The position numbers and the translations under genes were made by a program. The notes beneath the pieces were generated by a model. The model was not told where the DNA came from. It saw only the letters and a program-made list of their open reading frames with translations, and did no database searches. From contig CM059432.1 in assembly GCA_030390025.1 (NCBI GenBank), positions 60,452,001 through 60,516,000 of the forward strand: a stretch of 64,000 nucleotides of DNA, written 5' to 3'. The DNA is from Squalus acanthias (Eukaryota). Below are positions 17,201-50,125 of this stretch, one piece after another; the stretch's first letter is position 1; every line of letters begins with the position of its first letter.

Positions 17201-17221
17201 AGAAACAAAGGCAGAGATATT

Positions 17222-25269: not shown

Positions 25270-26054
25270 TATATGTTTCAATGAGATCACCTCTCATTCT
25301 TCTAAACTCTAGGGAATATAGGCCATGTCTACTCAATCTCTCCTCACAGGACAATACCCTCATCCTAAGAATCAGTTTAGTGAACTTGGGTTGAACTACC
25401 TCTAAGGCAAGCATATCCTTCCTTAGGTAAGGAGACTAAAACTGTACACAGTATGCCTGGTGTGGTCTCACTAAGGCCCTATATAATTGTAGTAAGACTT
25501 TACTCTTATACTCCAATCTCTTTGTAATAAAGGCTAACATATCATTTGTTTTCCTAATTGCTTGCTGTACCTGCATGTTAACTTTCTGTGATTCATGTAC
25601 AAGGACACCCAAGGTCCCTCTGAATACCAACACTTTCCAATCTCTCACCATTTAAAAAATATTCTGCTTTTCTATTTTTCCTACCGAAGTGGATAACCTC
25701 ACACTTCTCCATATTATACTCCATCTGCCGGATACTTGCCCACTCACTTAACCTGTCTATATCCCTTTGCAGCCTCTTTACGTCCTCTTCACAGCTTACT
25801 TTCCCACCTAACTTTGTATCGTCAGCAAACTTGGATACATTACACTCGGTATGCTCATTTAGGTCATGGATATAGATTGTGAATAGCTGAGGCTTAAGCA
25901 CTGATCCTTGCGGTACCCCACTAGTTACAGCCTGCCAACCCGAAAATGACCTGTTTATTCCTACTCTCTGTTTTCTGTCTGTTAACCAATCCTCAATCCA
26001 TGCCAATATATTAACTATACAAAAGCAAAATACTATATTAGTTAAATAAAAGAG

Positions 26055-26935
26055 ATGGCAGGGCAGGTGATGTTTTGCAGCTGTAGCATGTGGGAGCTGG
26101 AGGACCACAGTGTGATCCACAGCGACCACATCTGCAGTAAGTGTCTGCAGCTCGAGGAAATTTGGCCCCGAGTTGATGAGCTGGAGTCCGAGCTTCGGAC
26201 ACTGAGATACATCAGGGAGGAAGTTACCTGGATACTTTGTTCCAGGAGGCAGTCACACCCCTTAGGTTAAATACTTCAGATTTGGTCCGTGGTCAGGGAC
26301 AGGAGGGTGTGACTACGAGTAAGGCAGGTATGGGGATCCAGAAGGTAGCATTGGAGGAGCCTCAGCCCTTGCACTTGTCCAACAGGTATGAGGTTTTTGC
26401 AGCCTGTGTGGATGAGAGCAGGGACTGCAGGGAGGATGAGCAAACTGACCACAGCACCATGGTACAGGGGGCCATTCAAGTTGGGGCAGTAAAAAGGAAT
26501 GTAGTAGTGGTAGGGGCCAGTATAGTTAGGGGGATAGATACTGTTCTCTGCAGCCGAGAGCGTGAGTCCCGAAGGCTGTGTTGCCTGCCCAGGTGCCAGG
26601 GTTAAGGACATCTCCGCAGGGCTGGATAGGAACTTGGAGTGTGAGGGGAAAGATCCAGTTGTCGTGGTCCACGTAGGTACCAATGACATAGGTAGGACTA
26701 AGAAAGAGGTTCTGCTGAGGGAGTATGAGCAGCTAGGGCCCAAATTAAAAAGCAGAACCACAAAGGTAATAATCTCTGGATTACTACCTGAGCCACGAGC
26801 AAATTGGCATAGGGTCAATAAAATCAGAGAGTTGAATGCGTGACTCAAAGATTGGTGGGGGAAAATAGGTTTCGATTCATGGAGCACTGGCAACAGTGCT
26901 GGCGAATTGAATAACTAGGGTGGTAGATAGGGTTT
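26055..26935 (+). pseudogene. CR1 ORF1: zinc finger/leucine zipper plus SGNH esterase, frameshifted
   Basis: CSCSMWE...CSKCLQL...LESEL; VVVVG(A)SIVRG; PGARV; VVVHVGTND. Confidence 0.8.
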
Positions 26936-28918
26936 TGAACTAAATAGTCGGGGGGGAGGGTTCAGGTGAAGGGGAATTTAGAAAGTCAAAGAGAAAGGAG
27001 AAGGCAATAGTGCAGGGTAGCGACAGGGGTTATTATAACCAGAGTGTGACAGGAAGAGACAGTGCATACGAGTATAAGCGTGCACCAGCAAATAGAGTCA
27101 GAGTAGGGAAAAATGGTAAAATGACAAAATGAAAGGCTCTTTATCTGAATGCACACAGTATTCGTAACAAGATAGATGAGTTGACGGCACAAATAGAAAT
27201 AAATGGGTGTGATCTGATAGCCATTACAGAGACGTGGTTGCCAGGTGACCAAGGCTGGGAACTGAATATTCAGGGGTATTTGATATTTCGGATGGATAGG
27301 CAGAAAGGAAAAGGAGGTGGGGTAGCTCTGTTAATAAAGGATGAGATCAGTGTAGTGGGGAGAAATGACATTGGCTCAGAAGATCAAGATGTCGAATCAA
27401 TTTGGGTGGAGATAAGAAATAGTAAGGAAAAGAAGTGACTGGTGGGAGTAGTCTATAGGCCCTCTAACAGTAGCTACACTGTAGGACAGAGTATAAATCA
27501 AGAAATAATAGGGGCTTGTAAGAAAGGTACTGCGATAATCATGGGCGATTTTAATCTTCATATAGATTGGACAAATCAAATTGGCAAGGGTAGCTTTGAG
27601 GACGAGTTCATAGAATGTATTTGGGATGGTTTCTTAGAACAATACATTGTGGAACCAACCAGGGAGCAGGCTATTTTAGATCTGGTAATGTGTAATGAGA
27701 CAGGATTAATTAATAATCTCATAGTAAAGGATCCTCTAGGGAAGAGTGATCATAACATAGTAGAATTTCACATTCAGTTTGAGGGTGAGAAACTTGGGTC
27801 TGAAACTATGTCCTAAACTTAAATAAAGGCAATTACAAAGGTATGAAGACAGAGTTGGCTAAAGTGGACTGGGAAAATAGATTAAAGATTAAGACGGTAG
27901 ATAAGCAGTGCCAGACATTTAAGGAGATATTTCATAACTCTCAGCAAAGGATTATTCCAGCGAGAAGGATAAACCATCCGTGGCTAACTGAGGAAGTTAA
28001 GGATGGTATCAAATTGAAAGAAAAGGCATACAATGTCGCGAAGATTAGTGGTAGGCCAGATGATTGGGAAATTTTTAAAAACCAGCAAAGGATGACTAAA
28101 AAAATAATAAAGAGGAAGATAGATAGATTATGAAAGTAAACTAGCAAAAAATATAAAAACAGACAGTAAGAGCTTCTACAGGTATATAAAAAGGAAGAGA
28201 GTAGCTAAAGTAAACGTTGGTCCCTTAGAGGATGAGACTGGGGAATTAATAATGGGAAACAGGGAATTGGCAGAGACTTTGAACAAATATTTTGTATCTG
28301 TCTTCACAGTAGAAGACACTAAAAGCATCCCAATAATAATTGATAATCAAGGGGCTATAGGGAGGGAGGAACTTAAAACTATGACTATCACTAAAGAAAA
28401 AGTACTAGGCAAACTAATGGGACTAAAGGCTGACAAGTCCCCTGGACCTGATGACCTGCATACTAGGGTCTTAAAATAAGTGGCTGCAGAGATAGTGGAT
28501 GTGTTGGTTGTAATCTACCAAAATTCCCTGGATTCTGGAGAGTCATAGAGGTCCCAGCGGATTGGAAAACCACAAATGTAACGCCCCTATTCAAGAAAGG
28601 AGGGAGACAAAAAGCAGGAAACTATAGGCCAGTTAGCCTAATATCTGTCATTGGTAAAATGCTGGAATCCATTATTAAGGAAGTAATAGCAGGACATTTA
28701 GAAAATCATAATACAATCAAACAGAGTCAACATGGTTTTATGAAAGGGAAATCGTGTTTGACAAATTTACTAGAGTTCTTTGAGGATGTAACGAGCAGGG
28801 TGGATAAAGTGGAGCCAGTAGATGTAGTGTATTTGGATTTCCAGAAGGCATTCGATAAGGTGCCACATAAAAGGTTACTGCACAAGATAAGAGCTCATGG
28901 GGTTGGGGGTAATATATT

Positions 28919-29653
28919 GGCCCAAAAATTCGGCCCTTCCCGGGTGAGTACACAGTGCGTACTCACCCGTATTGCTTCCCAAAGTGCCGGTTTCTTGCAT
29001 GCACTGCGCATGCGCGGGAAACCGGAACTTCCGGTATGGTGAAGGGGGCGGTTCTGAGGTGAACCACGTGTGCGCTAGAGGCTGCGCGCACGCAGCACAC
29101 TTAGATTTTTTTCAGGTTTCTACGCGAGGGTAAGTATTGAAGATACTACGCTAATAAAAAGGAGGCGTAAGACCCCTTTTGAACAAGGTAAGTGGTTAAT
29201 TAAGTATAATTTTAAATTTTTTTCAACAGGTTTATCTTTTTTAGATACTTTAAGGAAAGGTAAGTTTTAATTTATAACTTTTAAAAAGTATTTTAATTTT
29301 TTCAAAAATTTAAATTTTTGTTTAAAGTGGTTAATTTATTTAACTATAGTTATTTTATAAATGTGATGGTTTTTAAAAAAATATATTTTAAGTTTAGCTG
29401 TTCTTTTGGGGCCGATTTCAATTCACAGATTTGACAGGTCTCCTGTCAAATCTATGAATGAAAGATGGTCTGCTGCCATTGGCTCTCCATGGCCCACGTG
29501 ATCCCTTGGGTCGCATCGCACTAACTGCGCCCCTGGAACACGCAAGCACTGCGCGCCGGCAGTTGGGAGAGGCCCAGGACCCGAAGTTCCGGTGGGCCCA
29601 AAACACAACGATCCTTACCCCCGCGGCAAGCCGGACATGCGAATTTCTGGGCC
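28919..29653 (+). mobile_element. Harbinger-type MITE (735 bp), relative of 24525-25269
   Basis: TIRs GGCCCAAAAATTCG / CGAATTTCTGGGCC, TSD ATT, shared interior. Confidence 0.88.
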
Positions 29654-30712
29654 ATTAGCATGGATAGAGAATTGGCTAATTAACAGAAACAGAGAGTCGG
29701 GATAAATGGGTCATTTTCAGGTTGGCAAACTGTAACTAGTGGGGTGCCACAGGGATCAGTGCTGGGGTCTCAACTATTTACAATCTATATTAATGACTTG
29801 GATGAAGTGACCAAGTGTACTGTAGCCAAATTTGCTGATGATACAAAGATTGGTGGGAAAGCAAGTTGTGAGGAGGACACAAAGAGTCTGCAAAGGGATA
29901 TAGATAGGTTAAGTGAGTGGGCAAAAATTTGGCAGATGGTGTATAATGTGGGAAAATGTGAAGTATGGAAGAATAAAAAAGCAAATTATTATTTAAATGG
30001 AGAGAGACTACAAAATGCTGCGGTACAGAGGGATCTGGGGGTCCTCGTACATGAAATACAAAAAGTTAGCATGCAGGTACAGCAAGTAATTAGGAAGGCA
30101 AATGGAATGTTGGCCTTTATTGCAAGGGGGATGGAGTATAAAAGAAGGGAAGTCTTGCTACAACTGTACAGGGCGCTGGTGAGACCACACCTGGAGTACT
30201 GCGTACAGTTTTGGTCTCCTTATTTAAGGAGGGATATACTTGCATTGGAGACAGTTCAGAGAAGGTTCACTAGGTTAATTCCTGAGATGAAGGAGTTGTC
30301 TTATGAAGAAAGGTTAAGCAGGTTGGGCCTATACTCATTGGAGTTTAGAAGAATGAGATGTGATCTTATTGAAATATATAAGATTCTGAGGGGGCTTGAC
30401 AGGGTAGATGCAGGGAGGATGTTTTCACTCGTGGGGGAATCTAGAAATAGGGGGCATAGTTTCAGAATAAGGGGTTGCCCATTTAAAACGGAGATGAGGA
30501 GGAATTTCTTCTCTCAGAGGGTCGCGAATCTTTGGAATTCTCTAACCCAGAGAGCTGTGGAGGTGGAGTCATTGAATATATTCAAGGCGGAGATAGACAG
30601 ATATTTGAACTACAGGGGAGTCAAGGGTTATGGGGAGCGGGTGGGAAAGTGGACTTGAGGCCAAGATCAAATGGCCTACTCCTGCTCCTATTTCTTATGT
30701 TCTTATGTTCTT

Positions 30713-30835
30713 ACTGCGGATGCTGGAAATCTGAAATAAAAACAGAAAATGCTGGAAATACTCAGCAGGTCAGGCAGCATCTGTGGAGAGAGAAACAGAG
30801 TTAACATTTCAAGTCGATGACCTTTCGTCACAACC
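30713..30835 (-). repeat. Penelope-like terminal repeat fragment with a degenerate hammerhead
   Basis: Same repeat as 36321-36420. Minus strand GTGACGAAAGGTCATCGACTTGAAATGTT. Confidence 0.7.
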
Positions 30836-31813
30836 ATGCATGAGCCCTAATTTTGTGTAATAACCTCTTGTGTGGCACCTTATCAAATGCTTTTTGAAAA
30901 TCCAACTACACTACATCCACTGGTTTCCCTTTATCTACCCTTCTTGTTACAACCACAAAAAACTCTTAACAGAATTGTCAAACACGATTTCCTTTTCATA
31001 AAACCATGTTGACTCTGCCCAATCATATTCTGATTTTCGAAGTGCCCTGTTACCACGTCCCTAATAATAGAGTCTAGCATTTTCCCTACTACTGATGTCA
31101 GGCTAACTGTTCTATAGTTCCCTGTTTTCTCTCTCCTTCCTTTCTTGAATAGCGGGGTTACGTTTGCTACCTTCCAATCCACAGGGACCGTTCTGGAACC
31201 TAGTGGATACTGGAAGATCAAAACTAATGCATCCACTATCTCTGTAGCCACCTCATTTAAAACCCTAGGATGCAGGCGATCAGGTCCAGGGGATTTGTCG
31301 ACTTTTAGTTCCATTAATTTTTTCAGTGCAATTTCTTTACTAATATTAATTTCTTTATGCTCCTCATTCTCACTAGACCCTTGGGGGGAAAAATTCGGTT
31401 GGGTTGCGCCTCCCGTTAGCGTCCTAAGAGGGCGCTAATGGGACGCAAAGCAACTAGCGTCCGGGTGCGGCGATGTTTGCGGCGATGTTTGCGACGCTCG
31501 TGAAATTGACTAGAGTTTTTGCAGCGGCGCAAAAGTTTACCGCCCCGATCTCCTGCGCCCACAGATCGTGACGTCAGTCGAGCGTGCAACGCCCTGGTGG
31601 CACCCCGGACCGGATATTGAGTGGCGTCCCCCCTCCTTTCAGCCTGCCGCAAGCAACGACAGGGAGACTTGAATGTTTCCCAGTCGGTGAGGGGCTGGGG
31701 TGGCGCTATTTAAAGCCGCCCTCTTCCTGCCTTTTTCTGTGGTAGACATTTTTGAATCACTCATTCTGACAGAGAGAGAGAGATCCTGAGAGAGAGACTT
31801 CTGCATAGAGTCA

Positions 31814-33046
31814 ATGCTGTGTGAAGTAGTTTTGGCTACTGAGCATCACTTTGCAGGTACTTTTGGATTTGACCTTCATTACTTCGATTGTCAAGAGACT
31901 TTGGGGGCTGCACTGATTCGGGGGGTCGTCCTGCGCCTGCAGAATCGGAGGCAACAGAGACGCAGAGAGAGAGTGGCAATCATGGCCAGTGGGAGGAGGG
32001 CCAACAGGCCTCTGCACAGGAGACCTTACCCTCTCAGGGTATTCCCAGAACAATTCTCCTACATTCATTTGTCTGAGGAGCAATGTTTGCGCAGGCTGCG
32101 CTTCAGCAAGGAGGTGGTCACTGAGCTCTGCCACCTACTGCAGCCAGATCTGCAGCCTCAACTGAGGACCAGGACGTCTCTGTCGGTGGCAGTGGAGGTC
32201 ACAGTGGCTCTGAATTTTTATGCCGCTGGCTCCTTTCAAGCAGCTACTGGGAACATCGGCAATATCTCCCAGTTCGAGGTCCATTGCTGTATCCGTCAGG
32301 TCACAAATGCCCTCTATAAAAGGAGACACCAGTACATCTATTTCCCGATGACCCGGGCCAAACAGCATGAATGCGCATTGGGCTTTGCGAGGATAGCGGG
32401 CTTCCCCATGGTGCAGGGCGCCATTGACTGCATGCATGTGGCATTGCGGGCACCGCATGAGAATGCAGAGGTTTTCCGAAACCGTAAGGGGTTCCACTCC
32501 TTAAACGTCCAGTTGGTCTGTGACCACAGACAGCTGATACTCGCTGTCAATGCCCGCTATCCTGGCAGCAGCCACAATGCTTTCATCCTGTGCCAGACTG
32601 GTGTGCCAGACCTTTTCCAGGCACCGCATCAGCCAAGTGGTTGGCTCCTCGGGGACAAGGGTTATCCACTGTGCACCTGGCTGATGACACCGCTCCGTAA
32701 CCCCAACACCCCTGCTGAGCTGCGGTACAATGAGAGCCATCTTGCCACCAGGAACATCACTGAGCAGACGATCGGCGTGCTCAAGCATCAGTTCCGCTGT
32801 CTGGACCACTCAGGAGGAGCTCTGCAGTACTCTCCTGAGCGAGTCTCCCTCTTCATAGTTGTGTGCTGCATTCTTCTTAACCTGGCAATCCTCAGGACCT
32901 AGCCAATGCCACCAGGCCTTGGTGCACCACCAGAGGAGGAGGAAGAGGAGGAGGATGATCAGCAGCAGCACCAAGGCGGGAGGGAGGCCCACAATGTTGA
33001 AACTGCAAGGGCCGTCCGTCAACGACTGATAACAAGCCGCTTCTAG
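31814..33046 (+). pseudogene. HARBI1-like DDE transposase with one in-frame TAG (32900-32902) before the acidic tail
   Basis: [32 protein letters not shown] (usually HD), [17 protein letters not shown]. The frame continues PMPP...EEEEEEEDD...LITSRF* to 33046. True start uncertain. Confidence 0.88.
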
Positions 33047-33389
33047 GCCCCTACTCAGGAAATGGCTTCTGGCATGGAGAACAACATGAATTAAAGCAAC
33101 CCGCAACCCCAAAGCTCGCCAAGGCAGCAATGATTCCAAAGGTCAAACCTGTACATTTTGAATACAAAAACTTTTTTATTTTACAAACTCTGTGTGTGTC
33201 ATTTCTTCATGACAAACTAATAGAAACAAACGCAAAAAATCATTAATTAACATAACTGGTTCTCACAACCTGGAGATAATGGCCAAAACACTAAACAAAA
33301 GTTTGAACATGGAACCTCGGCCTTTAATAAAAAAATTCCCAACATTTCGTCACACCTCCAACTTTTTGCCCTTTGAGGGTGATCTCCTT

Positions 33390-34315
33390 CTCTTGCGCAC
33401 TTCCCCCCTTCCCACCCTACTGCTCCTCCGTAAGGGGCCCCAGTGGCTGCAGCAAAGCTGGTGGAAGGCTGCTGATTGTCAGGACCTGAGACTACAGATG
33501 CCCTTGAAGGACGGCCTCGACCAGCTCTGGGCCTGGAGGGCCCGGCTGCAGACTGCACCAACTCTGCATGGGCGGCAGCAGTCTGGGCTACAGGTGGTGG
33601 CAAGTGCAATGGGGAAGTGACAGTGGTGGCAGCAGGAATGCTGTCATCTTGAGAGAGGACAGCACCTCCCTGCTCAACCATCACGCTGGCACTCCCATGG
33701 GGCAGCACCTCAGCATTCGGAGCAATCTGCTGGAGCACAGATTGCTGGCCTGCTGCAGCGCGATGAGAGCCCCGGGGAAATGTGTCCGAACCAGCGACAA
33801 TGGCAGCAGTCAGTGCTCGCGTGGCCTCAATCTGAGACTGCATGAGACCAGTCTGAGATTGGATCACGGCAACCAGTGACTGAATTGCAGCACTAAGCAT
33901 TTGCGTGGCATCCGCCTGTGCTACAGTGTAGTGCTCCACACTCCTTGCCAGTGCATCAATGCTTTCGGGCTGAGTTGAGTGTGCATGTCCACCGCCTGGG
34001 TGTTCATTTCAGCGATGAGCCGCTCCTCCTCTGCGTCCAGTGCAGCAGGACTCGCTGGCCTACTCTCCCTCCGGGGAGAAGGCCCCCGAGCTTCCCTAGC
34101 CACATTGCGTTGCTGCAGTCCGCTGGGTCCCAGAGCTTCATCCTCATCAGACCCTTCACCCCTGCTCCTCTCCAGGGAAGACGTGGTCCCAGTGTGGGCA
34201 TGGGCTTCCTCGGGAGAGGGTGGCGCTGAGGCTCCGGCTTCCTCTTCCTCCTTGCCTGCGGCTTCGCTCCCACTGGCAGCTTGAGGGCCCGTCTCCTCAG
34301 CTGGTGAATCACCAT
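33390..34315 (-). pseudogene. Harbinger Myb/SANT protein exon 3 (acidic linker plus coiled coil), frameshift near 33960
   Basis: Acceptor CCCTATTTCAG, in phase with exon 2. ORFs 33921-34415 and 33247-33939. Confidence 0.72.
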
Positions 34316-34473
34316 CTGAAATAGGGAGGTACAAGAGTGGCTTTAGCGTGAGGACAGGGGGGCAGTAAGGGAGGAAGGAGTGGAGTGATTTAGTAAGTTG
34401 GATTGAAAGTGTCAAAGGCTGGTGTTATGAGGGACAAGTGGAATGAGAGAGGAGAGAAAGCTGATGACCTTAC

Positions 34474-34636
34474 CATTGCTGTCCCGAATGGGGTCGACCT
34501 CTCCAGGGGCGACGGGACCGATCACCTGGCTTGCCACAATCCTGTGGACACGCGCCTCAAGATCACTGAGGGGTTGCAGCTGAGGCCGCCCTCCACCCGT
34601 CCATTGTTGCTGTCTCCTGTTATGAGATAGCTTGGC
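34474..34636 (-). CDS. Harbinger Myb/SANT protein exon 2
   Basis: Acceptor TTTTTCTTGCAG, AKLSHNRRQQQWTGGG...PLSDLE, donor G|GTAAGG. Confidence 0.8.
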
Positions 34637-34665
34637 CTGCAAGAAAAAGGACGGCGTCTGAGTAA

Positions 34666-34773
34666 ATATACAACCATGGTCTTGCCTGATTCGCCTCCCA
34701 TAGTTGAATAGCCCTTACAATATACAGCCATGGTCTTGCCTGATGTGCCTCCCATAGTTGAATAGCCCTTACT
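34666..34773. repeat. ~54-bp tandem duplication in Myb intron 1
   Basis: atataca(a/g)ccatggtcttgcctgat...gttgaatagcccttac occurs twice. Confidence 0.8.
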
Positions 34774-34920
34774 GTATGCAAGGTGTGGAATGTGCATGTG
34801 TGTTTCATGAGAGGGCCATAGGTGTTGGATGAGTGTTGGGCATTGGGGTTTTAAGACCCTCTGGCCATAGAGTGAGGTTGAAATGGAGGGATGGAGAGGT
34901 ATTGAAAAAAAGCCACTCAC

Positions 34921-35157
34921 ACTGACGACCCGAGTGAGGTCGTTGAACTTTTTGCGACATTGAGTATGGGTCCTGGGCACTATGCTCCTGGAGGAGATGT
35001 GCTGAGCCACCTCCCTCCACACTCTTCTGTAGTCGCGCGGCAAAGGCTTCCTGCCACTCTCAGGGTAGAGTATAAATCTTCTGCGCTCCACCGCGCCAAC
35101 GAGAGCCTCCAAGGCCCGCTCGCTGAAACGCTGAGCTCGTTCTCTCACCCTCTCCAT
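34921..35157 (-). CDS. Harbinger Myb/SANT protein exon 1 (DNA-binding domain)
   Basis: MERVRERAQRFSERALEALV...WREVAQHI...RTHTQCRKKFNDLTRVVS, followed by donor GTGAGT. Confidence 0.85.
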
Positions 35158-36380
35158 AGTCCTTGGCTGGAAAATGTAGGCACAGGTCTCTCCAGGCCGA
35201 GATTCAAGGCTCCAATGAGCAGGATGTGGATGGAGAGCAAGATCGACCCTGCCCTTTAAGAACTGGCCGCCACCAGTGTGTCTGTGTTCCATCACTAACT
35301 GACATCACCTGCGCTGCGCCCGTTCTCTGAGTTAGCGCCTCGCTCCTCGGCCTTTGTGCCTTAAGACAGGTGTGCAGTGCCTGATTTAGCGCTCCAATCA
35401 CCTCCAGAGGCGATAAAAGCCAAGTTTGCAGTCGGAGGCGATAATTAGCGCCAGGCGCTAAACTTTGTGCCCGGCCGATAATTGCGCCCCAAACGGGGCG
35501 ATACCGAATTTCTCCCCCTTGGTTCCCCACTATTTCTGGAATGTTATTTGTGTCTTCTACTGTGAAGACAGTTACAAAGTATTCCTTTAATGTCTCTGCC
35601 ATTTCCTTATTCTCCATTATAATTTCTCCTGCCTCTGCCTTTAAGGAACCCACGTTTACTTTCGTTAATCTCTTCCTTTTTACATATCTATAGAAGCTTT
35701 TAAAATCTGTGTCTTCCATACTTTTGAACATATTGCCATTTAAATGGAGTAACATTACTGGAATACTGTAGCTATTTGGCGCAGTCATCCCCCAGTCCTA
35801 ACTGCAAAACAGTATTTATTTTCAGTTCTTTAAGAGTTGGTAGCAGAGAGATATAATGGTGCAACAAAACAAACAGCCTACACAAAAAATGTGGGCTTTG
35901 CGTATGGATTCTGAACTACATTCAAAGAGAAATGCCACAAAAATGTAGTAAATCTAATTTAACTTTCTGATTTATTCATTCAAACAACCATCATACATAA
36001 TTAATGTCAAAACTGTACAGTAAATATGATGGGGAAGCTCTATAACTTAATTTGGAGGCAGCTAAGAACACAGAATTGCCAATGGTCTTGCCTTGAGATC
36101 GAGACAGTAACATTTTTCAAAATGTGTAAATTATTGTACTTCATATAGCTGCCTTGTAGATAGTCAAAGCAAATTGTTGTATGTTGGTTCAAAGAGTGGT
36201 CACAGCATAACTAGAATGAGCCTTTTTGACGAGCTAATGAGCAATATGGAAAGACACATTCTACTACCCATTTAGCCAAAGGCTGTTATACTACACAACA
36301 AAACTAGCTAAACTGGTGTAGAAACAGAAAATGCTGGAAATACTCAGCAGGTCAGGCAGCATCTGTGGAGAGCGAGGCAA

Positions 36381-36420
36381 AGTTAACGTTTCAGGTTGAT
36401 GACCTTTCGTCAGAACTGGA
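36381..36420 (-). ncRNA. Minimal type I hammerhead ribozyme motif in PLE repeat
   Basis: AGUU-CUGACGA-A-AGGUC-AUC-AACCU-GAAA-CGUU|AACU: core intact, stem I AGUU/AACU, palindromic AACGUU. Confidence 0.75.
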
Positions 36421-37611
36421 AAAAGTTACAGATTAACAGACTTTAAGCAGTTGCAGAGGCAGGGAAATGGGGGAGGGGAGGAAAGAACAAAAGGGAAGGT
36501 CTGTGATAGGGTGGAAGGCAGGAGTGATTAAAAGACAAAAGGGAGATTGTACAAAGCAAAAGGAGATGGCAATGGGACAAGTAAAGAAACAAAATGTGAG
36601 TTTCGAAGAGATGTAAACGGGAATGGCAGAAACATCAACAGCTGCCATGTGAAAAAATAGGGACAGAGGTTATGATCTGAAATTGTTGAACTCGATGTTG
36701 AGTCCAGAAGGCTGTAAAGTGCCTAATCGAAAGATGAGGTGCTGTTCTCGAGCTTACGTTGAGCTTCGCTAGAATAGTGCAAGAGGCCGAGGACAAAGTG
36801 GGGAGTGGAGCGGAGAATTAAAGTGACAGGCAACCGGAAGCTCGGGGTCACGCTTACGGACTGAACAGAGGCGTTCTGCAAAGCGGTCACCCAATCTGTG
36901 TTTAGTCTCCCCAATGTAGAGGAGACCACATTGTGAGCAGCGAATACAGTATACTAAATTGCAAGAAGTACAAGTAAATCGCTGTTTTAACTGGAAGGAG
37001 TGTTTGGGGCCCTGGACAGTGGGAAGGGACGAGGTAAAAGGGCAGGTGTTGCATCTCCTGCGCTTGCATGGGAAGGTGCGATGGGAAGGGAAGTGGGTGT
37101 TGGGGATGATTGAGGAGTGGACCAGGGTGCCTCGGAGGGAACGGTCCCTTCGGAATGCTGAAAGGGGAGGGGAGGGGAGGGGAAGATTTTTTTTCCTGGT
37201 GGGATCACGCTGGAGGTGGTGGAAATGGCAGAGGATGATCCGTTGAATGTGGAGGCTGGTGGGGTGAAAGGTGAGGACAAGGGGAATCCTATCGTGGTTC
37301 TGAGAGGGATAGGTTCTGCGAGACACTCTGCCCCTATTTTTTCACATGGCAGCTGTTGATGTTTCTGCCATTCCCATTTTCACCTGTTGTAGACTCATCT
37401 TTTGTTTCTTTACTTGTGCCATTACCATCTCCTTTTGCTTTGCACCATCATAGCTTTTGTCATTTAATCGCTCCTGCCTTCCACCCTATCACAGATTTCC
37501 CCTTTTTTTTCTTTCCTCTCCTCCCCCTTTCCCTGTCTCTGCAGCTGCTTAAAATCTGTTACATCTCTAACTTGTTCAAGTTTTCACAAAAGGTCATCGA
37601 CCTGAAACGTT

Positions 37612-39385
37612 GCAGGGAATTTTCCGGGGGTCAGCGGACGCGATCGGTGGTCGGTTGGGTGGGAAAGTGGGGGTTTTTTGACAGCGGGTCAGGAACCGCA
37701 GTGGCGGGAGAAGCAATTCAGGTCATTAGGACCTTGTTAACAGAGGATTAACAACAATTTTGAGCTCACCTTTAGAATTTACCAGCTCGCCAACGGGGTC
37801 CACGCTGCTCAGGGATCACGTCTATCAAGCTGGGCGGGAGTTGAATGGCCATAGAATCATCTCATTACTATACAGTTTGAAATGTGCTATAAAAGCTCCC
37901 ATCTCACAGCTGTTTACTTTCCAAGCTCAGAAACTGTTGCTTACTGCATATGGAAGACAGATTGAGCTTTTTGCAGGTTGCAAGTGTTTGGAGCAAGCTC
38001 TCTATCCAGTGTCACCTCATTGGAACAACCTCTCTCACCATTGACAGATTGCTTCTGTTATCTCAAGTTCACCTGCCATCTATTCCATCAGCATGGATAC
38101 AGTTTATACTCTCTCACCTTGGTCCTCAGAACCTGACCATGATCAGCCGCAACACCAGCATCACCAGCAGCACCAACAACCACACCAATCTTCTCTGCAA
38201 TCAACTGATGCTGCACAGGACAGAGGGCATCAGTACCCGACCACATTGCTGCCAGGGATGGCTTCACCATGGCCACATTTACTTCACTTGACGCTGCACA
38301 CCATGGCTGCCACATGATGCGCCAGGTTGGCACCACCCCACACCAACAACATAAAGCATCCCTACAATGCCCAACCCATTCCTTTCACACTCTTCAGCAC
38401 TGCGGGGGGTGTCGTTATGTCTCACCATTCACTGCAACTCACTAAGCCACTTCTAAAGATGCACACAAATCTATCCAAGAAGGCAAAGAGTTGAAAATAA
38501 AGATTTTAATGTTTGACAGCACATTAACAGAAACTTCACATGAACATTGGCTAAAACACACAAGTGCCTACCTTTCCTACATTACAATAGTGACTACACT
38601 CCAAAAGTACTTCATTGGCTGTAAAGTGCTTTGAGAGGTCCGGTGGTCGTGAAAGGCGCTATTTTCTTTTGTGTGTTGTTAGTTGGTATGATTGGACTAG
38701 GATGAGGGTGAGTGTGAGGGGTGGCTGGTGAGATGGGGAAGTAATAATGTAGATAGAGAGGGATGGGTGGAGATGCAAGGTAAGTTGGTGTGAGTAAGGA
38801 TGTGCTGGAGTAGGGTAGGGAAGGCAGAATGATGTGGATGTGATGAGTGGTACAGCAGGATGAGGTTGAGTGTGGCTTTGCAGTAACGTTTCGTGATCTA
38901 TTGAGATCATTGAAAGGTTTGCGCCACTGCAGCCTGATCCTCCTGATGACATTCCTGCTTGTGCACCCAGGCTGTGTTGGTCTCCTGGAGAGGTCTCTTC
39001 CGCCCATTGGAAGGGAAGAGAACCTCCCTGTGTGCTGTGACTCCCTCCATAAGCATATGGAGGGTGTCATGGGAGAGCCTGGGTGCAGCCCTACACCTTT
39101 GTGCAGTGTTTGTCAGTGTTTGCAGCACCTCAATGCTGTAGAACACTGACAGCACAAATGCCAAATTTGCACATGGTCCCTTTAAGGAAACCAGCTGATG
39201 ACACGTCATTAAATTACGTCACTAGACCCGCTTCCTCTAATTGGCCAGAAAACGTGCTAGGCGGGCTTATGAAGCTCAATCAGGGGAAAGTAATTCTACA
39301 GAGCGGGATGGAGACAGCAGCGGGGTCAGGACCAGCCACCGATGTCGTCCGCCACGGACCCACTGAGGTAGGGAAAATCGCGGCC
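37612..39385. mobile_element. Internally deleted Harbinger
   Basis: TSD GTT and imperfect TIRs (GCAGGGAATTTTCC / GGAAAATCGCGGCC). Myb remnant APRLSHDTLHMLMEGVTAHREVLFP on the minus strand. SINE piece at 38575-38665. Confidence 0.75.
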
Positions 39386-39724
39386 GTTAACACTGTTTCT
39401 CTCTCCACAGATGCTGCCTGACCTGCTGAATATTTCCAGCATTTTCTGTTATTTCAGATTTCCAGCATCCACAGTATGTTGCTTTTGTATTAGCTAAACT
39501 AGTGGATATTTTTGATTGTGTATTTTGAAAACTGTAGTTCTACAAATATCAACACAAGTGATACTTTCTTTCTCGAGAGGAAGGATATGGTGGCAGTTAA
39601 AATTTTAGTACCATGCTTTTATGATGTAAATAAAATTCAGTTACAATTTTAGGGGGAAATTTCTCATGTGGTCCTCAGACTTTTCTATCTGAATGGCAAA
39701 TATAAAATATATCAATTATTGCAA

Positions 39725-40305
39725 CATCCATGCTTTTATTACCTCTAGACTTGACTATTCCAATGCTGTCCTGGCTGGCCTCCCATCTTCCACCCTACGT
39801 AAACATGCTCATCCAAAACTCTGCTGCCCATATCCTGACTTGGACCAAGTCCTGTTCACCCATAACCCCTGTGCTCACTGATCTACATTGGCTCCCCGTG
39901 CAGCAATGCCTCAATTATAAAATTCTTCTCCTTTTGTTCAAATCCCTCCATGGCCTCGCCCCTCCCTATCTCTGTAACCTCCTCCAGCCCTACAAATCTC
40001 CAAGACTCTGCGCTCCTCCAATTCTGGCCTCGCGTGCATCCCCGATATTCATCGTTCCACCATTGCCGGCTGTACCTTCAGCTGCCTAGGCCCTAAGCTC
40101 GGAATTCCCTCCCTAAACCTCTCCGTCTCTCTCTCCTCCTTTAACTCTCTCCTTAAAACCTACCTCTGACCAAGCTTTTGGTCACCTGTCCTAACATCTC
40201 TTTATGTGACTAGGTGTCAAATATTGTTTGTTAATGCTCTTGTAAAGTGCCTTGGGATGTTTTTACTATGTTAAAGGTGCCATATAAATGCAAGTTGTTG
40301 TTGTT
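39725..40305 (+). mobile_element. L2 LINE 3' end
   Basis: IHAFITSRLDYSN, LHWLPV and the L2 tail. Confidence 0.85.
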
Positions 40306-43300
40306 CAAACAAGGCAGATGTGAAAAATAACATTCATATCTTCACACTCATGTGAAGTAGTGGAGGGATTCACAGGCTGATTAACAGTCTGGCTGGCCAA
40401 GAGGTAAACGCTTCTTCCATTGCCATAACCATCTTTATACCAGCCAATAAGGTGGTTAGTCCTATACATTGGGAGGGTTTTATGGGCTCCCACACCTATT
40501 GGGAGGGAGTATCACACTGGTTGTCAATCCAGAGTTCACAGCCAGGGGCTCGAGTCTCCATTCACTGGGACTATCTGGAGCGGGGTTCAAACCTTGCACC
40601 TTCTGACTTAGAGGCAGGAATGCTACCAATAAGCCAAAGGCTCACTGCACCAAAGATTGGTGATAATTGATAAGCTATGAAAATTGCCATATATATTCTC
40701 ACCAAACTGCTGGAACTAGCTCAGAGAGAGCAATGGTTCTAAAGAATCACAGAATCATAGAAATTTACAGCACAGAAGGAGCCATTCGGCCCATCGTGTC
40801 TGTGCCGGTCGAAAAGCGCCATCCAGCCTAATCCCACTTTCCAGCTCTTGGTCCGTAGCCTTGCAGGTTACAGCACTTCAAGTGCATATCCAAGTACTTT
40901 TTAAATGTGATGAGGATTTCTGCCTCTACCCTCCTTTCAGGCAGACCCCCACCGCCCTCTGAGTGAAAAAAATTCTCCTCAACTCTCCTCTAATCCCTCT
41001 AACAATTATTTTAAATCTATGCCCCCTGGTTACTGACCTCTGAGCTAAGGGAAATAGGTCCTTCCTATCCACTCTATCTAGCCCCCTCATAATTTTATAC
41101 ACCTCAATTAAGTCTCCCCTCCAAAGAAAACAGCCCCAGCCTATTCAATCTTTCCTCATAGCTAAAATTCTTCAGTCCTGGCAACATCCTCATAAATCTC
41201 CTCTGTACCCTCTCTAGTGCAATCACATCTTTCCTGTAATGTGGTGACCAGAACTGTACGCAGTGCTCTAGCAGTGACCTTACTAGTGTTTTATACAGTT
41301 CTAGCATAACCTCTCTACTCTTTTACTCTATGCCTCAACTAATAAGGGAAAGTATCCCGTATGCCTTCTTAACCACCTTATCCACCTGTCCTGCTACCTT
41401 CAGGGATCTGTGGACATGCACTCCAAGGTCCCTTTCTCAGTATCCAACTGTTTATTGTGTATTCCCTTGCCTTGTTAGTCCTCCCCATATACATTACCTC
41501 ACACTTCTCCAGATTGAATTCCATTTGCCACTTTTCTGCCCATCTGACCAGTCGATTGATATCTTCCTGTAATCTACAGCTATCTTCTTTACTATCAACC
41601 ACACAGCCAATTTTTGTATCATCTGCAAATTTCTTAATCATGCCCCCTATATTGAAGTCTAAATCATTGATATATACCACAAAGCAGGGGACCCAGTACT
41701 GAGCCCTGTGGAACTCCACTGGAAACAGCCTTACAGTCACAAAAACACCAGTCAACCATTACCCTTTGCTTCCTGCCACTGAGCCAATTTTGGATCCAAC
41801 TTGCCACTTTCCCTTGGATCCCATGAGCTTTCACTTTTTTGACCAACCTGCCATGTGGGCCCTTGTCAAAGGCCTTGCTAAAATCCATGTAGACTACATC
41901 AAATACACTACCCTCATCGACCCTCCTTGTTACCTCCTCAAAAATTTCAATCAAGTTAGTCAGACACGACCTTCCCTTAACAAATCCATGCTGACTGTCC
42001 TTGATTAATCTGTGACTTTCTAAATGATGATTTATAATGTCCCTCAAAATTTTTTCCAATAATTTTCCCACCACCGAGGTTAGGCTGACTGGCCTGTAAT
42101 TACTCGGTCTATCCCTTTCTCCCTTTTAAAAAAATGGCACAATGCTAACAGTCCTCCAGTCGTCTGGCACCGCCCCCTGTAGCCAGAGAGGACTGGAAAA
42201 TGATGGTCAGAGCCTCCACTATTTCCTCCCTTGCCTCTCTTAACAGCCTGGGATACATGTCATCCGAGCCTGGTGATTTATCTACTTTCAAAGATGCTAA
42301 ACCTCTTAATACTTCCTCTCTCTCTATGTTTATCCCATCTAATATTTTACACTCCTTCTCCTTAACTACAATGGCTGCATCGTCCCTCTCTACTGTGAAG
42401 ACAGACGCAAAGTATTCATTAAGAACCATACCCACGTCTTCTGCCTCCACGCATCGGTTACTTTTTTGGTCTCTAATAGGCCCTACTCTTTCCTTAGTTA
42501 TTCTCTTGCTCTTTATGTATTTATAAAACATCTTTGGATTTTCCTTGATTTTACTCGCCAAACATTTTTCATGCCCTCGCTTTGCTTTCCTAATTTCCTT
42601 TTTAATTTCACGACTGCACTTTCTATACTCCTCTAGGCTTTCTGTAGTATTGAGCTCTCGGTAGCTGACAAAAGCTTCCCTTTTTTTCCTTATCCTACCC
42701 TGTATAAGAACATAAGAAATAAGAGCAGGAGTAGGCCATACAGCCCGTTGAGCCTGCTCTGCCATTCAATAAGATCATGGCTGATCATCGACCTCAACTC
42801 CACTTTCCCGCCCGATCTCCTTATCCCTTGATTCCCCAAGAATCCAAAAATCTATCTATCTCAGCCTTGAATATACTCAAAGACTCAGCATTCACAGCCC
42901 TCTGGGGCAGAGAATTCCAAAGATTCACAACCCTCTGAGTGAAGAAATTCCTCCTCATCTCAGTCTTAAATGGCCTACCCCTTATCGTGAGACTATGCCC
43001 CCTAGTTCTAGACACTCCAGCCAGGGGAAACAACCTCTCAGCATCTACCCTATCAATCCCCTTCAGAATCTTGTATGCTTCAATGAGATCACCTCTCATT
43101 CTTCTAAAGTCCAGAGAGTATAGGTCCATTCTACACAATCTCTCATCATAGGACAGCTCTCTCATCCCAGGAATCAATCTAGTGAACCATCGTTGCACTG
43201 CCTCCAAGGCAAGTATATCCTTCCTGAGATAAGGAGACCAAAACTGTGCACAGTACTCCAGGTGTGCTCTCACCAAGGTCCTGTACAATTGTAGCAAGAC

Positions 43301-43581
43301 TTCCTTACTCTTATTCTCCAACCCCCTTGCAATAAAGGCCAACATGCCATTTGCCTTCCTTATTGCTTTCTGTACCTGCATGCTAGCTTTCTGTGTTTCT
43401 TGCACGAGGACACCCAAATCTCTCTGAACACCAACATTTGAAAGTTTCTCACCATTTAAAAAATATTGTTTTTCTATTCTTCCTACCAAAGTGAATAACC
43501 TCACATTTCCCTACATTATACTCCATCTGCCACCTTACTGCCCACTCACTTAGTCTATTTATATCCCTTTGCAGACTCTTT

Positions 43582-45227
43582 GGGCTGGATTTTGTCAGCC
43601 CCGAGGAGGCGGGTATGGAGGCGGCACTGCCGGTAAAGTTGCAGAATTTGGGGGTGGGTGGCAAACCCGCCCCCATCCCGCCTCCGTGCCCTCGTGAAAG
43701 GGATTAAAGCCTATTAACTGCCTGTTAACAGGTAGTTAAGAGGCAGAAAATAGGATTATCCCCATTTTTCGTTTTGATGTGCAGGCTTCCCGACCTCGGG
43801 GAACCCCGCCAGGGTGCAGGAGCCGAGTAGGGGGTCGGAGGGGACTGAATGTGCAATGTAGAGGTGAGTGAGGGGCGCAAGTGTGGAGTGGTAACTATCT
43901 AAGGTGAGTGTAAAGTGTTAGAAAATGTTCACTTACCTTTGTTTCTGCCTACAGCCTTCAGCTGCTGTGGAGCCGGAGTCCCAACATCTCCATTGTAGAT
44001 ATCACAGACTGGCTGTGGGATCCTCCGATCCTACAGCCAGGTGATTTCTGCAAAGTTGAAAGGTTTGATGAGTCTTGAACACTAGGGGGGAAATATTCAG
44101 TTGGTTGCACCTCCCGTTAGCGCCTTAAGAGGGCGGTAATGGGGCGCAAAGCAACTAGCGCCCGGGCGCGGCGATGTTTGCGCCGCTCGCGAAATTAACC
44201 AGACATTTTGCGGCGGCGCTAAACACTACCGCCACGATCTCCTGCGCCGACAGATCGTGACATCAGTCAAGTGCGCAACGCCCCGGTAGTGCCCCGGAGC
44301 GGATATTGAGTGGCGCCCCCTGCCGCTAGCAACGACAGGTTGAGGGGAGCGTTTTGCAGTCAGGAAGGGACTGGGGGAGCGCTATTTAAAGGCGACCGCT
44401 TCCTGCCTTTTATTGTTGGTGACATTTTTGAACCACGCATTCTGAGAGAGAGAGAGACTTCTGGAGAGATTCAACACTGTGTGAAGGAGTTTTGGGTACT
44501 GAGCAGCACTTTGCAGGTTCATTTTGATTTGCCCTTCCTTGTATCGATTTAGAAGAGACTGTGGGGGCTGCACTCTGAGCTCTTTCCCTGGGCCTCTCCA
44601 TTGTTATTTCCAGCAGATTTGATGTACAGGTCTCTCCAGGCCGAGATTCAAGGCTGCAATGAGCAGGATGTGGATGGAAAGCAAGATCAACCATCCCCTT
44701 TAAGAACTGGCCGGGGCCATTGTGTCTGTGTTCCATTGCTGACTGACATCACATGAGCTTCGCCAGCGCTCTGAGATAGCGCCTCGCTCCTCAGCCTTTG
44801 CGCCTTAAGACAGGTGTGAAGCGCCTGATTTAGCGCTCCAATCACCTCCAGGGGCGATAAAAGTCAAGTTTGCAGTCGGAGGCGATAATTAGCACCAGGC
44901 GCTAATCTTTGCGCCCGGCCGATAATTGCGCCCCAAATGGGGCGATACTGAATTTCTCCCCCAAAGTCTCATCAAACTACACTGAATGTCAGTGTTTGAC
45001 AGCTGACATTTCTTCTGTCAAAAAATCTTGACAGATGGCACGTCCGACGTTAACGTGCTCTGTCACTGACTTCCCCCTAATTGACCTGCTGAACCCGCTG
45101 GGCGGGCTTAACAAAGTCAATCAGGGGAAAATCCCGCTGGTTGGCCAGAAGCTGATGGGAGTTGGGATTGAAAGCCGACAAGCAGCAGTCCCGCCTCCAA
45201 AAGCTTTCCATTGACAAAATCCAGCCC
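43582..45227. mobile_element. Harbinger-type MITE (third family) hosting another MITE
   Basis: Perfect TIR GGGCTGGATTTTGTCA, TSD TTT. The CR1 frame is restored on removal. Confidence 0.88.
44086..44962 (+). mobile_element. Non-autonomous Harbinger (~877 bp), family of 31384-35518
   Basis: Collinear with 9541-10433, same internal junction. TSD not matched (TAG vs AAA). Confidence 0.88.
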
Positions 45228-47099
45228 TTTGTGTTCTCCTCACAGCTTACCATCCCACCTAGCTTTGTATCATCAGCAAACTTGGATACATTACACTCGG
45301 TCCCTTCATCTAGGTCATTAATATAGATTGTAAATAACTGAGGTTTCAACACGGATCCTTGCGGCACCCCACTAGTTACAGCCTGTCAACCTGAAAAAGA
45401 TCTGTTTATCCCTACTCTCTGTTTTCTGTCCGTTAACCAATCCTCTATCCATGCTACTATATTACCTCCAACCCCATGAGCTTTAATCTTGTGTAATAAC
45501 CTTTTATGTGGCACCTTATCGAATGCCTTTTGGAAATCCAAATATACTACATCCACTGGTTCCCCTTTATCTACCCTGTTAGTTACATCCTCAAAAAACT
45601 CTAATAAATTTGTCAAACACGATTTCCCTTTCATAAAACCATGTTGACTCTGCCTAATCATGTTATGATTTTCTAAGTGACTTGATACCACCTCCTTAAC
45701 AATGGATTCCAGCATTTTCCCCAACGACTGATGTCATGCTAACTGGCCTGTAGTTCCTTGTTTTTTCTCTCCCTCTTTTCTTGAATAGTGGTGTTACATT
45801 TGCAACCTTCCAATCCGCTGGGACCATTCCAGAATCTAGGGAATTTTGGAAGATCAAAACCAATGCATCTACTATCTCTTCAGCCACCTCTTTTAGAACC
45901 CTAGGATGTAGGCCGTCAGGTCCAGGGGATGTGTCGGCTTTTAGTCCCATTAGTTTCTCTAGTACTTTTCTCTACTTATATTAATTACGTTAAGTTCCTC
46001 ACCCTCATTAGACCCTTGGTTCCCCACCATTTTTGGTATGCTTTTTGTGTCTTCTACTGTGAAGACAGATACAAAATATTTGTTTAACCTTTCTGCCATT
46101 TCCTTATTCCCCGTAATAATTTCTCCTGTCTCAGCCTCTAAGGGACCACGTTTACTTTTGCTACTCTTTTCCTTTTTACATACTTGTTCCTTGACATCCA
46201 GGGGGCTCTAGATTTGGGAGTCCCACCCTTTTTCTTTGTGGGAACATATTTGCTCTGGACCCTCACTAGCTCCTCCTTGAATGCCTTCCACTGCTCTGAC
46301 ACTGATTTACCTTCAAGTAGCTGCTAAATCACATCTCAGCTTAGTAAAATTGACCTTTCCCCAATTGAGAACTTTTACATCTGGTCTATCGTCGCCCTTT
46401 TCCATAACTATGCTAAATTTAACTGAATTATAATCACTACCACCAAAATGCTCTTCCACTGATACCCCTTCCACCTGCCCAACTTAATTGCCTAAAACTA
46501 AGTCCAGAACTGCCCCCTTTCTTGTTGGGTAGGAGATACAGGGGGTTGTATTCATTATTCATCCACCCAAAATCATTTTAACTCAGCATTATAATTTTCC
46601 AATTTGGAGGTTTTTCAGTGATACTAATAAGGTATCTAAGCCTGAAAGAATAAATCTGCTTAGTTGTGCTGTCCTTCTGAAGAAACAAGGTCTTAAATGA
46701 AGGGAAGCTGTCATATCTGGCCTCCATATTTGACAACGGATCCTTGCATTATGGAATTACTATTAGAATGTTGGCACTCAGTTTCAACAAGTCTACCAAC
46801 CAAGTTTACCTTAATCAATGTTAATATTGGCTCATCCAACTAGATCTCATTAAAGATTTTAGGCACAAGATGAAATTATAGGAAGAAATACAGAAATCTG
46901 CAATAGATTAAGAGGTTGTCAAGGGTGACTGATTGACTGTCTTTGTTCATTGATTTGAAATGTTGCTATGAGATCTGTATCTATCGATCATCTGTTAAAC
47001 ATTGTATGAACTGTTCAGGGGCATCAGGTCGCTGTGCCATTAGACCTTGTGGGTGTCCATTGCCTGCCATAACATTTTACATCCCTATGACAGGTGAAA

Positions 47100-50000: not shown

Positions 50001-50125
50001 TGATCAGCGCGGGTAACGTTGACTGTATGCGACAATTATTCAAATAAGCAGCAATGAATGTGTGAGGGTTAATCGCATACCGCGATCCCGGCGCCCGTTA
50101 TCTTGGGTTATCCAATTTAACCCCC
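47100..50125. mobile_element. Decayed two-gene Harbinger
   Basis: Transposase remnants on + (LSEEQC...KVTVALNFYA; QLVCDH...YPGSSHD; RNIIEHTI) at ~47200-48280. Myb remnants on - (EALVQEVERRRDILYP). Right terminus AATTTAACCCCC; left end not defined. Confidence 0.8.

What the first reader, a model, noticed from the sequence alone, without database searches (positions are those of the whole stretch)
36381..36420. Hammerhead ribozyme motif in the recurrent PLE repeat, in sense inside the CCDC178-like intron
Seen: on the minus strand the repeat reads AGUU CUGACGA A AGGUC-AUC-(G/A)ACCU GAAA CGUU AACU. This gives the hammerhead boxes CUGANGA and GAAA, a stem II, a GUU triplet and a stem I, with stem III replaced by the palindrome AACGUU. 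Other copies: 61924-61962 (core intact) and 30799-30835, 37578-37611, 50905-50956, 60266-60305 (degenerate). Established: PLEs carry minimal type I hammerheads thought to cleave as dimers through a palindromic stem III. Inference: this copy is transcribed within the host pre-mRNA and could cleave it co-transcriptionally if paired with another copy.
Basis: partly seen in the sequence, partly recalled or inferred. Interest (0 to 1): 0.75.

Follow-up and report, generated by a model that had tools for sequence, protein, structure and literature searches.

The report
Shark Penelope hammerhead buried in hairpin
The small self-cutting-RNA motif is real, but it is one of more than 100,000 end-pieces of a known kind of jumping gene in this shark genome, and this copy landed together with its own mirror image, which is predicted to zip it into a long double helix, so it likely does not cut the host gene's RNA.

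Summary
Observation confirmed. 36417-36381 (-) is a minimal type I hammerhead (cut site 36385/36384) at the end of a truncated Penelope-like element (PLE). It lies in sense in a 34.7-kb intron of shark CCDC178. Such cores number about 127,000 genome-wide (control 487), and their stems covary between families.

The inference that it cleaves the host pre-mRNA is not supported. The copy is one arm of a single insertion (36319-39490) bounded by a 14-bp target-site duplication. The other arm (37326-37611) is antisense, is transcribed first, and is predicted to pair with 30 of the 33 hammerhead bases (stem II probability about 0). The proposed partners are broken, antisense or buried. Intact copies show no strand bias in CCDC178 (5 sense, 4 antisense). 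Published PLE hammerheads are slow, need a dimer or protein, and left no RNA-seq ends.

In young 3.2-kb tandem elements the hammerhead overlaps the first AUG. Short copies start at its first base far more often than at the cut, which suggests templates are uncut transcript 5' ends. The scan has noted shark PLE hammerheads many times before (236 notes), this 5'-end pattern included. Known kind; low interest.

The parts
36381..36417 (-). Minimal type I hammerhead motif (family A); predicted cut between 36385 and 36384 after GUU; stem II has a C.A mismatch and an A-U closing pair
   Evidence: sequence; passes descriptor; no Rfam hit
36319..36380 (-). [quoted passage not shown]
   Evidence: blastn to young unit L161; tail profile hits
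36418..36665 (-). PLE 3' UTR / pLTR upstream of the hammerhead
36666..37341 (-). Broken C-terminal remnant of the PLE ORF: Cys-rich linker (CKRRRCNTC) and GIY-YIG endonuclease end; 83% identical to the young 1004-aa ORF over 169 aa
   Evidence: young ORF weakly matches RVT_1 and GIY-YIG
37326..37611 (+). Inverted partner arm (UTR plus mutated hammerhead up to GUU), antisense in the CCDC178 transcript, 87% over 287 nt to 36385-36668; predicted to bury the sense hammerhead
37612..39384 (.). 1,773-bp later insertion with rough terminal inverted repeats that splits the inverted arm at its GTT triplet (Harbinger/MITE-like; label recalled, not tested against a library)
39385..39490 (+). Rest (tail) of the inverted arm
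36305..36318 (-). Target-site duplication, copy at the 3' end (14 bp, 1 mismatch)
39491..39504 (-). Target-site duplication, copy at the 5' end
51076..51279 (-). CCDC178 exon upstream of the intron (aa 159-232 of P0002)
16191..16411 (-). CCDC178 exon downstream of the intron (aa 228-305 of P0002); phase matches
16412..51075 (-). CCDC178 intron (34,664 nt, GT..AG) that holds the motif
61924..61960 (-). Second sense copy in the preceding intron: boxes intact, stem I 2 of 4 pairs, antisense neighbour at 60153-60405
30799..30835 (-). 5'-truncated sense copy: C3 lost, 15.2 changed to U
50843..51021 (.). Fold-back pair of short copies lacking CUGANGA (180 nt, 91% inverted identity)
60032..60405 (+). 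Antisense copy with a mutated core
57251..57287 (-).

Best explanation
This is the minimal hammerhead motif from the terminal repeat of a truncated Penelope-like retrotransposon, inserted in sense in a CCDC178 intron together with an inverted copy of itself, and it is predicted to be locked in a long RNA duplex and so is likely inert toward the host transcript. Shown: the motif; the PLE context; the host intron and strand; one insertion bounded by a target-site duplication; very high copy number; stems preserved between families; overlap of the hammerhead with the first AUG in young tandem elements. Predicted by folding: the antisense arm, made first, pairs with the hammerhead as it leaves the polymerase. 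Inferred: the motif's real job is in the element's own tandem transcript, where neighbouring units 3.2 kb apart could pair through ACGU, probably with help from the element's protein. Also inferred: most genomic copies were copied from RNA that had not been cut.
For: Single insertion 36319-39490 with a 14-bp TSD. In a fold of 36300-37650, hammerhead bases pair with 37579-37611 at probability mostly 0.9-1.0; stem II probability is 0.0; arm duplex -416 kcal/mol. Co-transcriptional snapshots: 16 of 18 bases paired when the RNA ends at 36400, 30 of 33 at 36385. Without the arm, stem II probability is only about 0.12 and stem I under 0.01. Half-site dimers lie 9.3-13.6 kcal/mol above the monomer folds. 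Copy number: 15,524 exact, 45,515 family A cores, 127,138 relaxed cores. In CCDC178, 18 sense vs 12 antisense tails and 5 vs 4 descriptor-passing hammerheads (p=0.36 and 1.0). Young elements have a 1004-aa ORF in tandem units about 3,198 bp apart, a GUC triplet, and the cut 26 nt after the first AUG, as in the Anolis element PAc. There the ribozyme needs the protein, uncut RNA is the main template and no RNA-seq ends were found at the site (PMC11167929). Monomers are inactive and dimers weak in vitro (PMC4209133). Slow intronic ribozymes do not affect splicing (Fong 2009 as cited in PMC10919898).
Against: No RNA data from this species bear on the locus, so inertness is not measured. Folding is an equilibrium model without proteins; helicases or editing could open the duplex. 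The strand counts come from one gene and would miss a modest bias. The core and triplet of this copy are intact. Copies decay slightly less in the core than downstream (2.5% vs 4.4%, p=0.06), but subfamily differences inflate the downstream figure.
Confidence: 0.86

Rival explanations
1. The copy pairs with another sense copy in the CCDC178 pre-mRNA, or with PLE transcripts in trans, and cuts the intron co-transcriptionally, lowering CCDC178 output.
For: Intact core, GUU triplet, stem I 4 of 4 and sense orientation. Fast intronic ribozymes can lower mRNA (PMC12069562; PMC10919898). The family still has young copies with intact ORFs, so its protein and RNA may be present as helpers.
Against: Predicted burial by the antisense arm. 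Partners are defective or distant. The cut would have to beat splicing: 19,973 nt to the next 3' splice site, about 5-6 min at the elongation rate quoted in PMC10919898. Minimal PLE hammerheads are slow. No sense depletion in this gene.
Confidence: 0.04
2. The insertion matters to the host, but as a roughly 290-bp intronic double helix (an editing substrate or a modifier of splicing), not as a ribozyme.
For: The duplex is predicted with high probability. That long intronic inverted repeats are edited by ADAR is general knowledge (recalled).
Against: Such inverted pairs are the ordinary product of PLE insertion (PMC8557442 Fig. 2 legend). Five of seven sense copies examined in this gene have an inverted neighbour within 6 kb. 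The duplex is 13.5-20 kb from either exon. No editing or conservation data were obtained.
Confidence: 0.06
3. The family A motif is no longer a working ribozyme even in the element. It is kept because it overlaps the promoter and the start of the ORF.
For: It overlaps the first AUG and codes MKGHRPETST. The closing pair of stem II is A-U or G.U, rarely the canonical G-C. Few genomic copies begin at the cut. In PAc the ribozyme is dispensable for insertion in vitro.
Against: Stems are preserved by compensatory change between families: 290 of 300 cells paired vs at most 229 in 2,000 shuffles (relatedness not controlled). The A.C mismatch at 10.1-11.1 occurs in only 178 of 45,515. N7 and H17 vary as hammerhead rules allow (H17 is not G in 29 of 30). 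The youngest subfamily has GUC.
Confidence: 0.04

Closest known systems
Minimal hammerheads (min-HHR) in pLTRs of metazoan PLEs (Cervera and De la Pena 2014, PMC4209133; abstract, results, discussion and part of methods read)
   Same: Type I; no helix III; palindromic 15.2-16.2; an extra nucleotide between 9 and 10.1; 4-bp helix I; thousands of mostly single copies tied to truncated PLEs; close pairs on opposite strands.
   Different: The stem II closing pair is A-U or G.U rather than the conserved G10.1-C11.1; helix II is 5 bp; copy number (over 100,000) far exceeds the 4,000-9,000 reported for coelacanth and Xenopus. Sharks are not named in the parts read.
Anolis PAc (Poseidon) hammerhead (Frangieh et al. 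2024, PMC11167929; main text and part of methods read)
   Same: The hammerhead overlaps the ORF start, with the cut 26 nt after the AUG; genomic copies end in a short tail just inside the ORF; tandem organisation.
   Different: The shark element has the CX2-5CxxC linker of Neptune/Nematis-type PLEs; activity and protein dependence are untested here.
EN+ PLE insertions with an inverted 5'-truncated partner (Craig et al. 2021, PMC8557442; passages read)
   Same: A sense copy plus an adjacent inverted copy forming one insertion; RT followed by a C-terminal GIY-YIG.
   Different: Here the inverted arm was later split by another transposon.
Domesticated intronic ribozymes (RECK/HH9-type hammerheads, CPEB3; passages in PMC6155905 and PMC10919898)
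   Same: Sense orientation within an intron of a protein-coding gene.
   Different: Those are complete monomeric ribozymes conserved at one locus. This is a decayed, dimer-dependent repeat copy with no evidence of locus conservation.

Membership tests
PLE min-HHR | CUGANGA and GAAA boxes with an NUH triplet in type I order | tested here: met
PLE min-HHR | Helix I of 4-5 bp and helix II, supported by covariation | tested here: met
   4 bp + 4 bp in this copy; 290 of 300 cells paired in 30 unselected cores; A.C in 178 of 45,515
PLE min-HHR | No helix III; palindromic 15.2-16.2 | tested here: met
   ACGU here; C-G in 10 and G-C in 20 of 30, with the pattern limiting both places to C or G
PLE min-HHR | [quoted passage not shown] | tested here: met
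   A at 36406; A in 47 of 47 tail-anchored copies spanning the motif
PLE min-HHR | Highly conserved G10.1-C11.1 pair (a typical trait rather than an absolute one) | tested here: not met
   A-U in this copy; family A is mostly A-U or G.U; family B keeps G-C
PLE min-HHR | Located in the pLTR of a PLE | tested here: met
   Follows the ORF end and UTR here, and recurs once per 3.2-kb unit in the tandem array L161/L162
PLE min-HHR | Self-cleavage as a dimer | not testable with these tools
   needs an in vitro assay
Rfam hammerhead families | Covariance-model score at or above the gathering threshold | tested here: not met
   no hammerhead hit; expected if the models require helix III (inference)
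EN+ Penelope-like element | Single ORF with RT followed by a C-terminal GIY-YIG | tested here: met
   young ORF: RVT_1 E 2.6e-5 and GIY-YIG E 6.6e-4, both below the curated cut-offs; window remnant 83% identical
EN+ Penelope-like element | Tandem/pLTR and inverted insertion structure | tested here: met
Neptune clade | CX2-5CxxC linker between RT and EN (shared with Nematis) | tested here: met
   definition in PMC8557442
Neptune clade | RT phylogeny placing it in Neptune rather than Nematis | not tested
   no tree was built
Domesticated intronic ribozyme | Able to fold into the active form in the pre-mRNA | tested here: not met
   predicted stem II probability 0.0 in context; a computation only
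Domesticated intronic ribozyme | Conserved at the orthologous locus in other species | tested here: inconclusive
   one contig covers the flank and tail but stops before the motif; conservation of the motif itself remains open

The most novel reading that the evidence does not exclude
In these shark PLEs the hammerhead forms the first 37 nucleotides of the capped transcript (start at the A of an initiator-like CCAGTTC) and contains the first AUG. A protein-assisted dimer cut at +33 would remove cap and start codon together: a self-limiting translation switch rather than a step that makes the template. The stubs of about 100-135 nt that start at +1 would be the fossil record of uncut templates.
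Probability: 0.3. Interest if true: 0.55.

Novelty: new member of a known kind. Interest (0 to 1): 0.22.

Why it matters
As a host-regulation finding it matters little: tens of thousands of such copies must sit in shark introns, and this one is among the least able to fold. Two things are of use. First, it is a clear worked example of why intronic PLE hammerheads are tolerated: they need a partner, and many arrive with their own antisense arm. Second, the genome holds young, intact tandem elements whose hammerhead overlaps the start codon, which makes the open question of what PLE hammerheads do directly testable in a vertebrate Neptune-type element.

Tried and rejected
Rfam: no hammerhead family matched; a weak CPEB3 match at 40362-40436 is below threshold.

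RNA evidence: no RNA holder was listed. Contigs from four runs guessed to be RNA were laid. They are dominated by paralogous repeat copies and cannot show ends, so they are no evidence either way. Whether the motif is conserved at the orthologous locus remains open.

Cap-derived G: G precedes the +1 A in 55 of the first 100 listed boundary copies (my count). Among the first 30, however, 8 have an inverted partner upstream (6 with G), and in 4 copies with a resolved TSD the G belongs to the TSD. A cap signature is not shown.

Cleavage footprint in DNA: 179 matches start at the cut vs 122 at a control 3 nt downstream. Only 12 of 30 and 5 of 20 have unique flanks; 3 of those 12 look like ends of the other transposon, and only 1 of the 12 has a TSD. 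At most a weak excess (2-3 fold after rough correction); inconclusive.

Conserved splice acceptor after the hammerhead: rejected as a family feature, because young elements read CCACGG-ATG without the AG.

Preferential core conservation among dead copies: not significant (p=0.06 and 0.17).

The dimer row for the 50905 copy was cut one base out of register and is disregarded. The unit-to-unit comparison was ungapped and is not used.

Lunse et al. 2017 was not available; it is known here only from the review PMC6765202. A literature search on G10.1-C11.1 gave two papers, seen as listings only, so the effect of the A-U pair on rate is not cited.

Full report
1. The observation. The minus strand at 36417-36381 reads as a minimal type I hammerhead: AGUU, CUGACGA, an extra A, AGGUC-AUC-AACCU, GAAA, C, GUU, AACU. 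The predicted cut lies between 36385 and 36384. In this copy stem II has 4 pairs because of a C.A mismatch, and it closes on A-U. Rfam gives no hammerhead match. The motif is not chance: a descriptor that demands stems finds 17 hits in 664 kb around the locus and none in ten shuffles. Genome-wide, an exact 29-nt core occurs 15,524 times (control 0), family A cores 45,515 times, and a relaxed core 127,138 times (control 487).

2. The host. Exons at 51279-51076 and 16411-16191 (-) have matching phase and GT/AG ends. The second gave 11 hits, all chondrichthyan proteins and 10 named CCDC178 by their first-listed source, the best at 93% identity. Nineteen pieces of the 891-aa relative map in order on the minus strand over C8:60,072,318-60,546,470 of a 3.7-Gb genome. 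The motif is therefore in sense in a 34,664-nt intron, 19,973 nt before the next acceptor.

3. The repeat. Upstream of the motif lie a UTR and a broken ORF end with a Cys-rich linker and a GIY-YIG motif. The remnant is 83% identical to a 1004-aa ORF with weak RVT_1 and GIY-YIG matches. That ORF's RT region is matched at 100% in all 150 places scored, several with the full 1004-aa frame. One locus holds units in tandem about 3,198 bp apart with one hammerhead per unit. It is an endonuclease-bearing PLE with the linker described for Neptune and Nematis (PMC8557442, passages); no tree was built. In the young units the first AUG lies inside the core (CUG AUG AAA), the triplet is GUC, and the cut falls 26 nt after the AUG. 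This is the arrangement reported for Anolis PAc (PMC11167929, main text).

4. Is the structure under constraint? Between lineages, yes. In 30 cores picked without regard to stems I and II, 290 of 300 pair cells are standard pairs (column shuffles: mean 210, maximum 229 of 2,000), with C-G/U-A, A-U/G-C and C-G/G-C exchanges. These come essentially from two families and their subfamilies, so they are few independent events. The 10.1-11.1 pair moves among A-U, G.U and rarely G-C; the A.C mismatch is only 178 of 45,515. Among individual copies, no. In 47 of 89 tail-anchored copies that span the motif (from 88 loci among the first 100 listed of 19,092 matches), the core differs at 13 of 512 positions against 61 of 1,380 downstream (p=0.06).

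5. Could this copy cut the pre-mRNA? The sense piece (37341-36319) and the + strand pieces (37326-37611 and 39385-39490, split by a later 1,773-bp insertion) are one insertion: a 14-bp duplication with one mismatch flanks them at 39504-39491 and 36318-36305. This inverted layout is typical of PLEs. In the CCDC178 transcript the antisense arm is made first. Folding 37650-36300 pairs the hammerhead with 37579-37611 at probabilities mostly 0.9-1.0, stem II probability is 0.0, and the arm duplex is -416 kcal/mol. Truncated folds that mimic elongation show 16 of 18, then 30 of 33, hammerhead bases paired. With the arm left out, stem II still forms with probability only about 0.12 and stem I under 0.01. 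The isolated 37-mer prefers a hairpin that pairs the core with the cut site. Half-site dimers are 9.3-13.6 kcal/mol less stable than the separate monomer folds.

Partners: 61960 has 2 of 4 stem I pairs, lies 25.5 kb away in the previous intron and has its own antisense neighbour (-358 kcal/mol). 30835 has lost C3. 50905-50956 is a fold-back without CUGANGA. 37578 and 60266 are antisense. Across the gene, tails number 18 sense and 12 antisense and descriptor-passing hammerheads 5 and 4: no depletion, at low power.

The literature agrees. Single min-HHRs were inactive and dimers weak (PMC4209133). PAc needed its protein, used uncut RNA and left no RNA-seq ends. Slow intronic ribozymes did not affect splicing (Fong 2009, as cited in a passage of PMC10919898). 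On the other side, engineered fast hammerheads in an intron do lower mRNA (PMC12069562, passages), and Xenopus retrozymes are modestly under-represented in introns though over 40% lie there (bioRxiv 10.64898/2026.07.22.740005, abstract, results part 1 and discussion; its supplements were not seen). No RNA data were informative.

6. What the family's copies say about mechanism. Of 89 copies, 41 run more than 45 nt upstream of the cut. Of the other 48, 26 begin within 28-36 nt of it, around the first base of stem I (p about 1e-7), and 3 within 0-4 nt, two of which look like ends of another transposon. Genome-wide, 1,505 matches break at that base against 177 at an internal control and 179 at the cut (control 122); the patterns differ in length, so the ratios are rough. 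Eleven of 22 unique-flank copies that start at +1 have an 8-14 nt duplication reaching the junction, against 1 of 12 that start at the cut. The start sits in CCAGTTC, which fits the initiator consensus YYANWYY (recalled). By eye, several short family B copies begin at an A 6-7 nt before C3 in a similar context. I infer that transcription starts at the hammerhead's first base, that reverse transcription begins about 100-135 nt downstream as in PAc, and that templates were mostly uncut. Any copy that spans the cut site, this one included, must have come from uncut or re-ligated RNA. A cap-G signature was suggested but not shown. D. virilis Penelope differs: its start lies 46 bp before an intron (PMC2377424, passages) whose end meets helix I. 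A search for Penelope-like + transcription start + hammerhead + start codon listed 2 papers, neither on this point by title or abstract start; shark + Penelope + hammerhead + retrotransposon gave 1 review whose only shark mention is the animal's head. The library lacks most subscription journals. Earlier notes of this scan reached the same reading on other DNA; I saw them, and they are not independent evidence.

7. Verdict. A real, ordinary member of a known class. Inert passenger 0.86; functional duplex 0.06; host cleavage 0.04; non-catalytic relic at family level 0.04. Interest 0.22. The only lead of wider interest is the overlap of hammerhead, inferred transcription start and AUG in young elements.

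Noticed in passing
window 37612-39384; also G000:C8:60621503, 60214531, 60242537; L195, L220: GC-rich insertions with GGGC...ATTTT-like termini repeatedly sit at the GTT/ATT just before AAC of this hammerhead, i.e. at the cut site in DNA. In two cases both halves of the split copy were found, with an apparent 3-bp duplication. Looks like target preference of a Harbinger-type element (label recalled), and can be mistaken for a cleavage footprint.
   Followed up: partly
window 57251-57895 (-): End of a second PLE family (family B) with its own hammerhead. Between its ORF end and that hammerhead (about 57520-57615) lies a relic hammerhead-like motif with altered boxes (CUGACGU ... GAGU) and a family-A-like tail; nearly the same relic recurs at G000:C8:60638414, so it is part of that subfamily's UTR.
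   Followed up: partly
G000:C8:60405344 (-), L046: A young family A copy with GUC, perfect stems and no inverted neighbour within 6 kb, in sense in another CCDC178 intron; the best candidate in this gene for a cleavage test.
   Followed up: partly
L039:31-2715 (+), G000:C8 about 60.332-60.335 Mb: An 895-aa uninterrupted family B PLE frame inside a CCDC178 intron, between two hammerheads in opposite orientation about 3.2 kb apart.
   Followed up: partly
L161/L162, G000:C4:15,716,000-15,726,000: Tandem array of three intact-looking 3.2-kb family A units with 1004-aa frames; the family appears recently active.
   Followed up: yes
window 40362-40436 (-): Weak match to the CPEB3 (HDV-like) ribozyme model, 25.5 bits against a threshold of 35 (E 0.018), several pairs broken; lies in sense in the same intron.
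   Followed up: no
window 3052-3195 and 50843-51021: Two short fold-back pairs made only of PLE tails or half-hammerheads.
   Followed up: no
window 6752-9096, 17773-20887, 27133-30669 and others: Much of the window is long interspersed repeats; some frames look like the endonuclease-RT of CR1/L2-type LINEs (by eye).
   Followed up: no
L013-L018, G000:C1 6.99-7.13 Mb: Truncated family A ends repeated at about 1.68-kb spacing inside a larger duplicated unit, giving closely spaced same-strand hammerheads.
   Followed up: no
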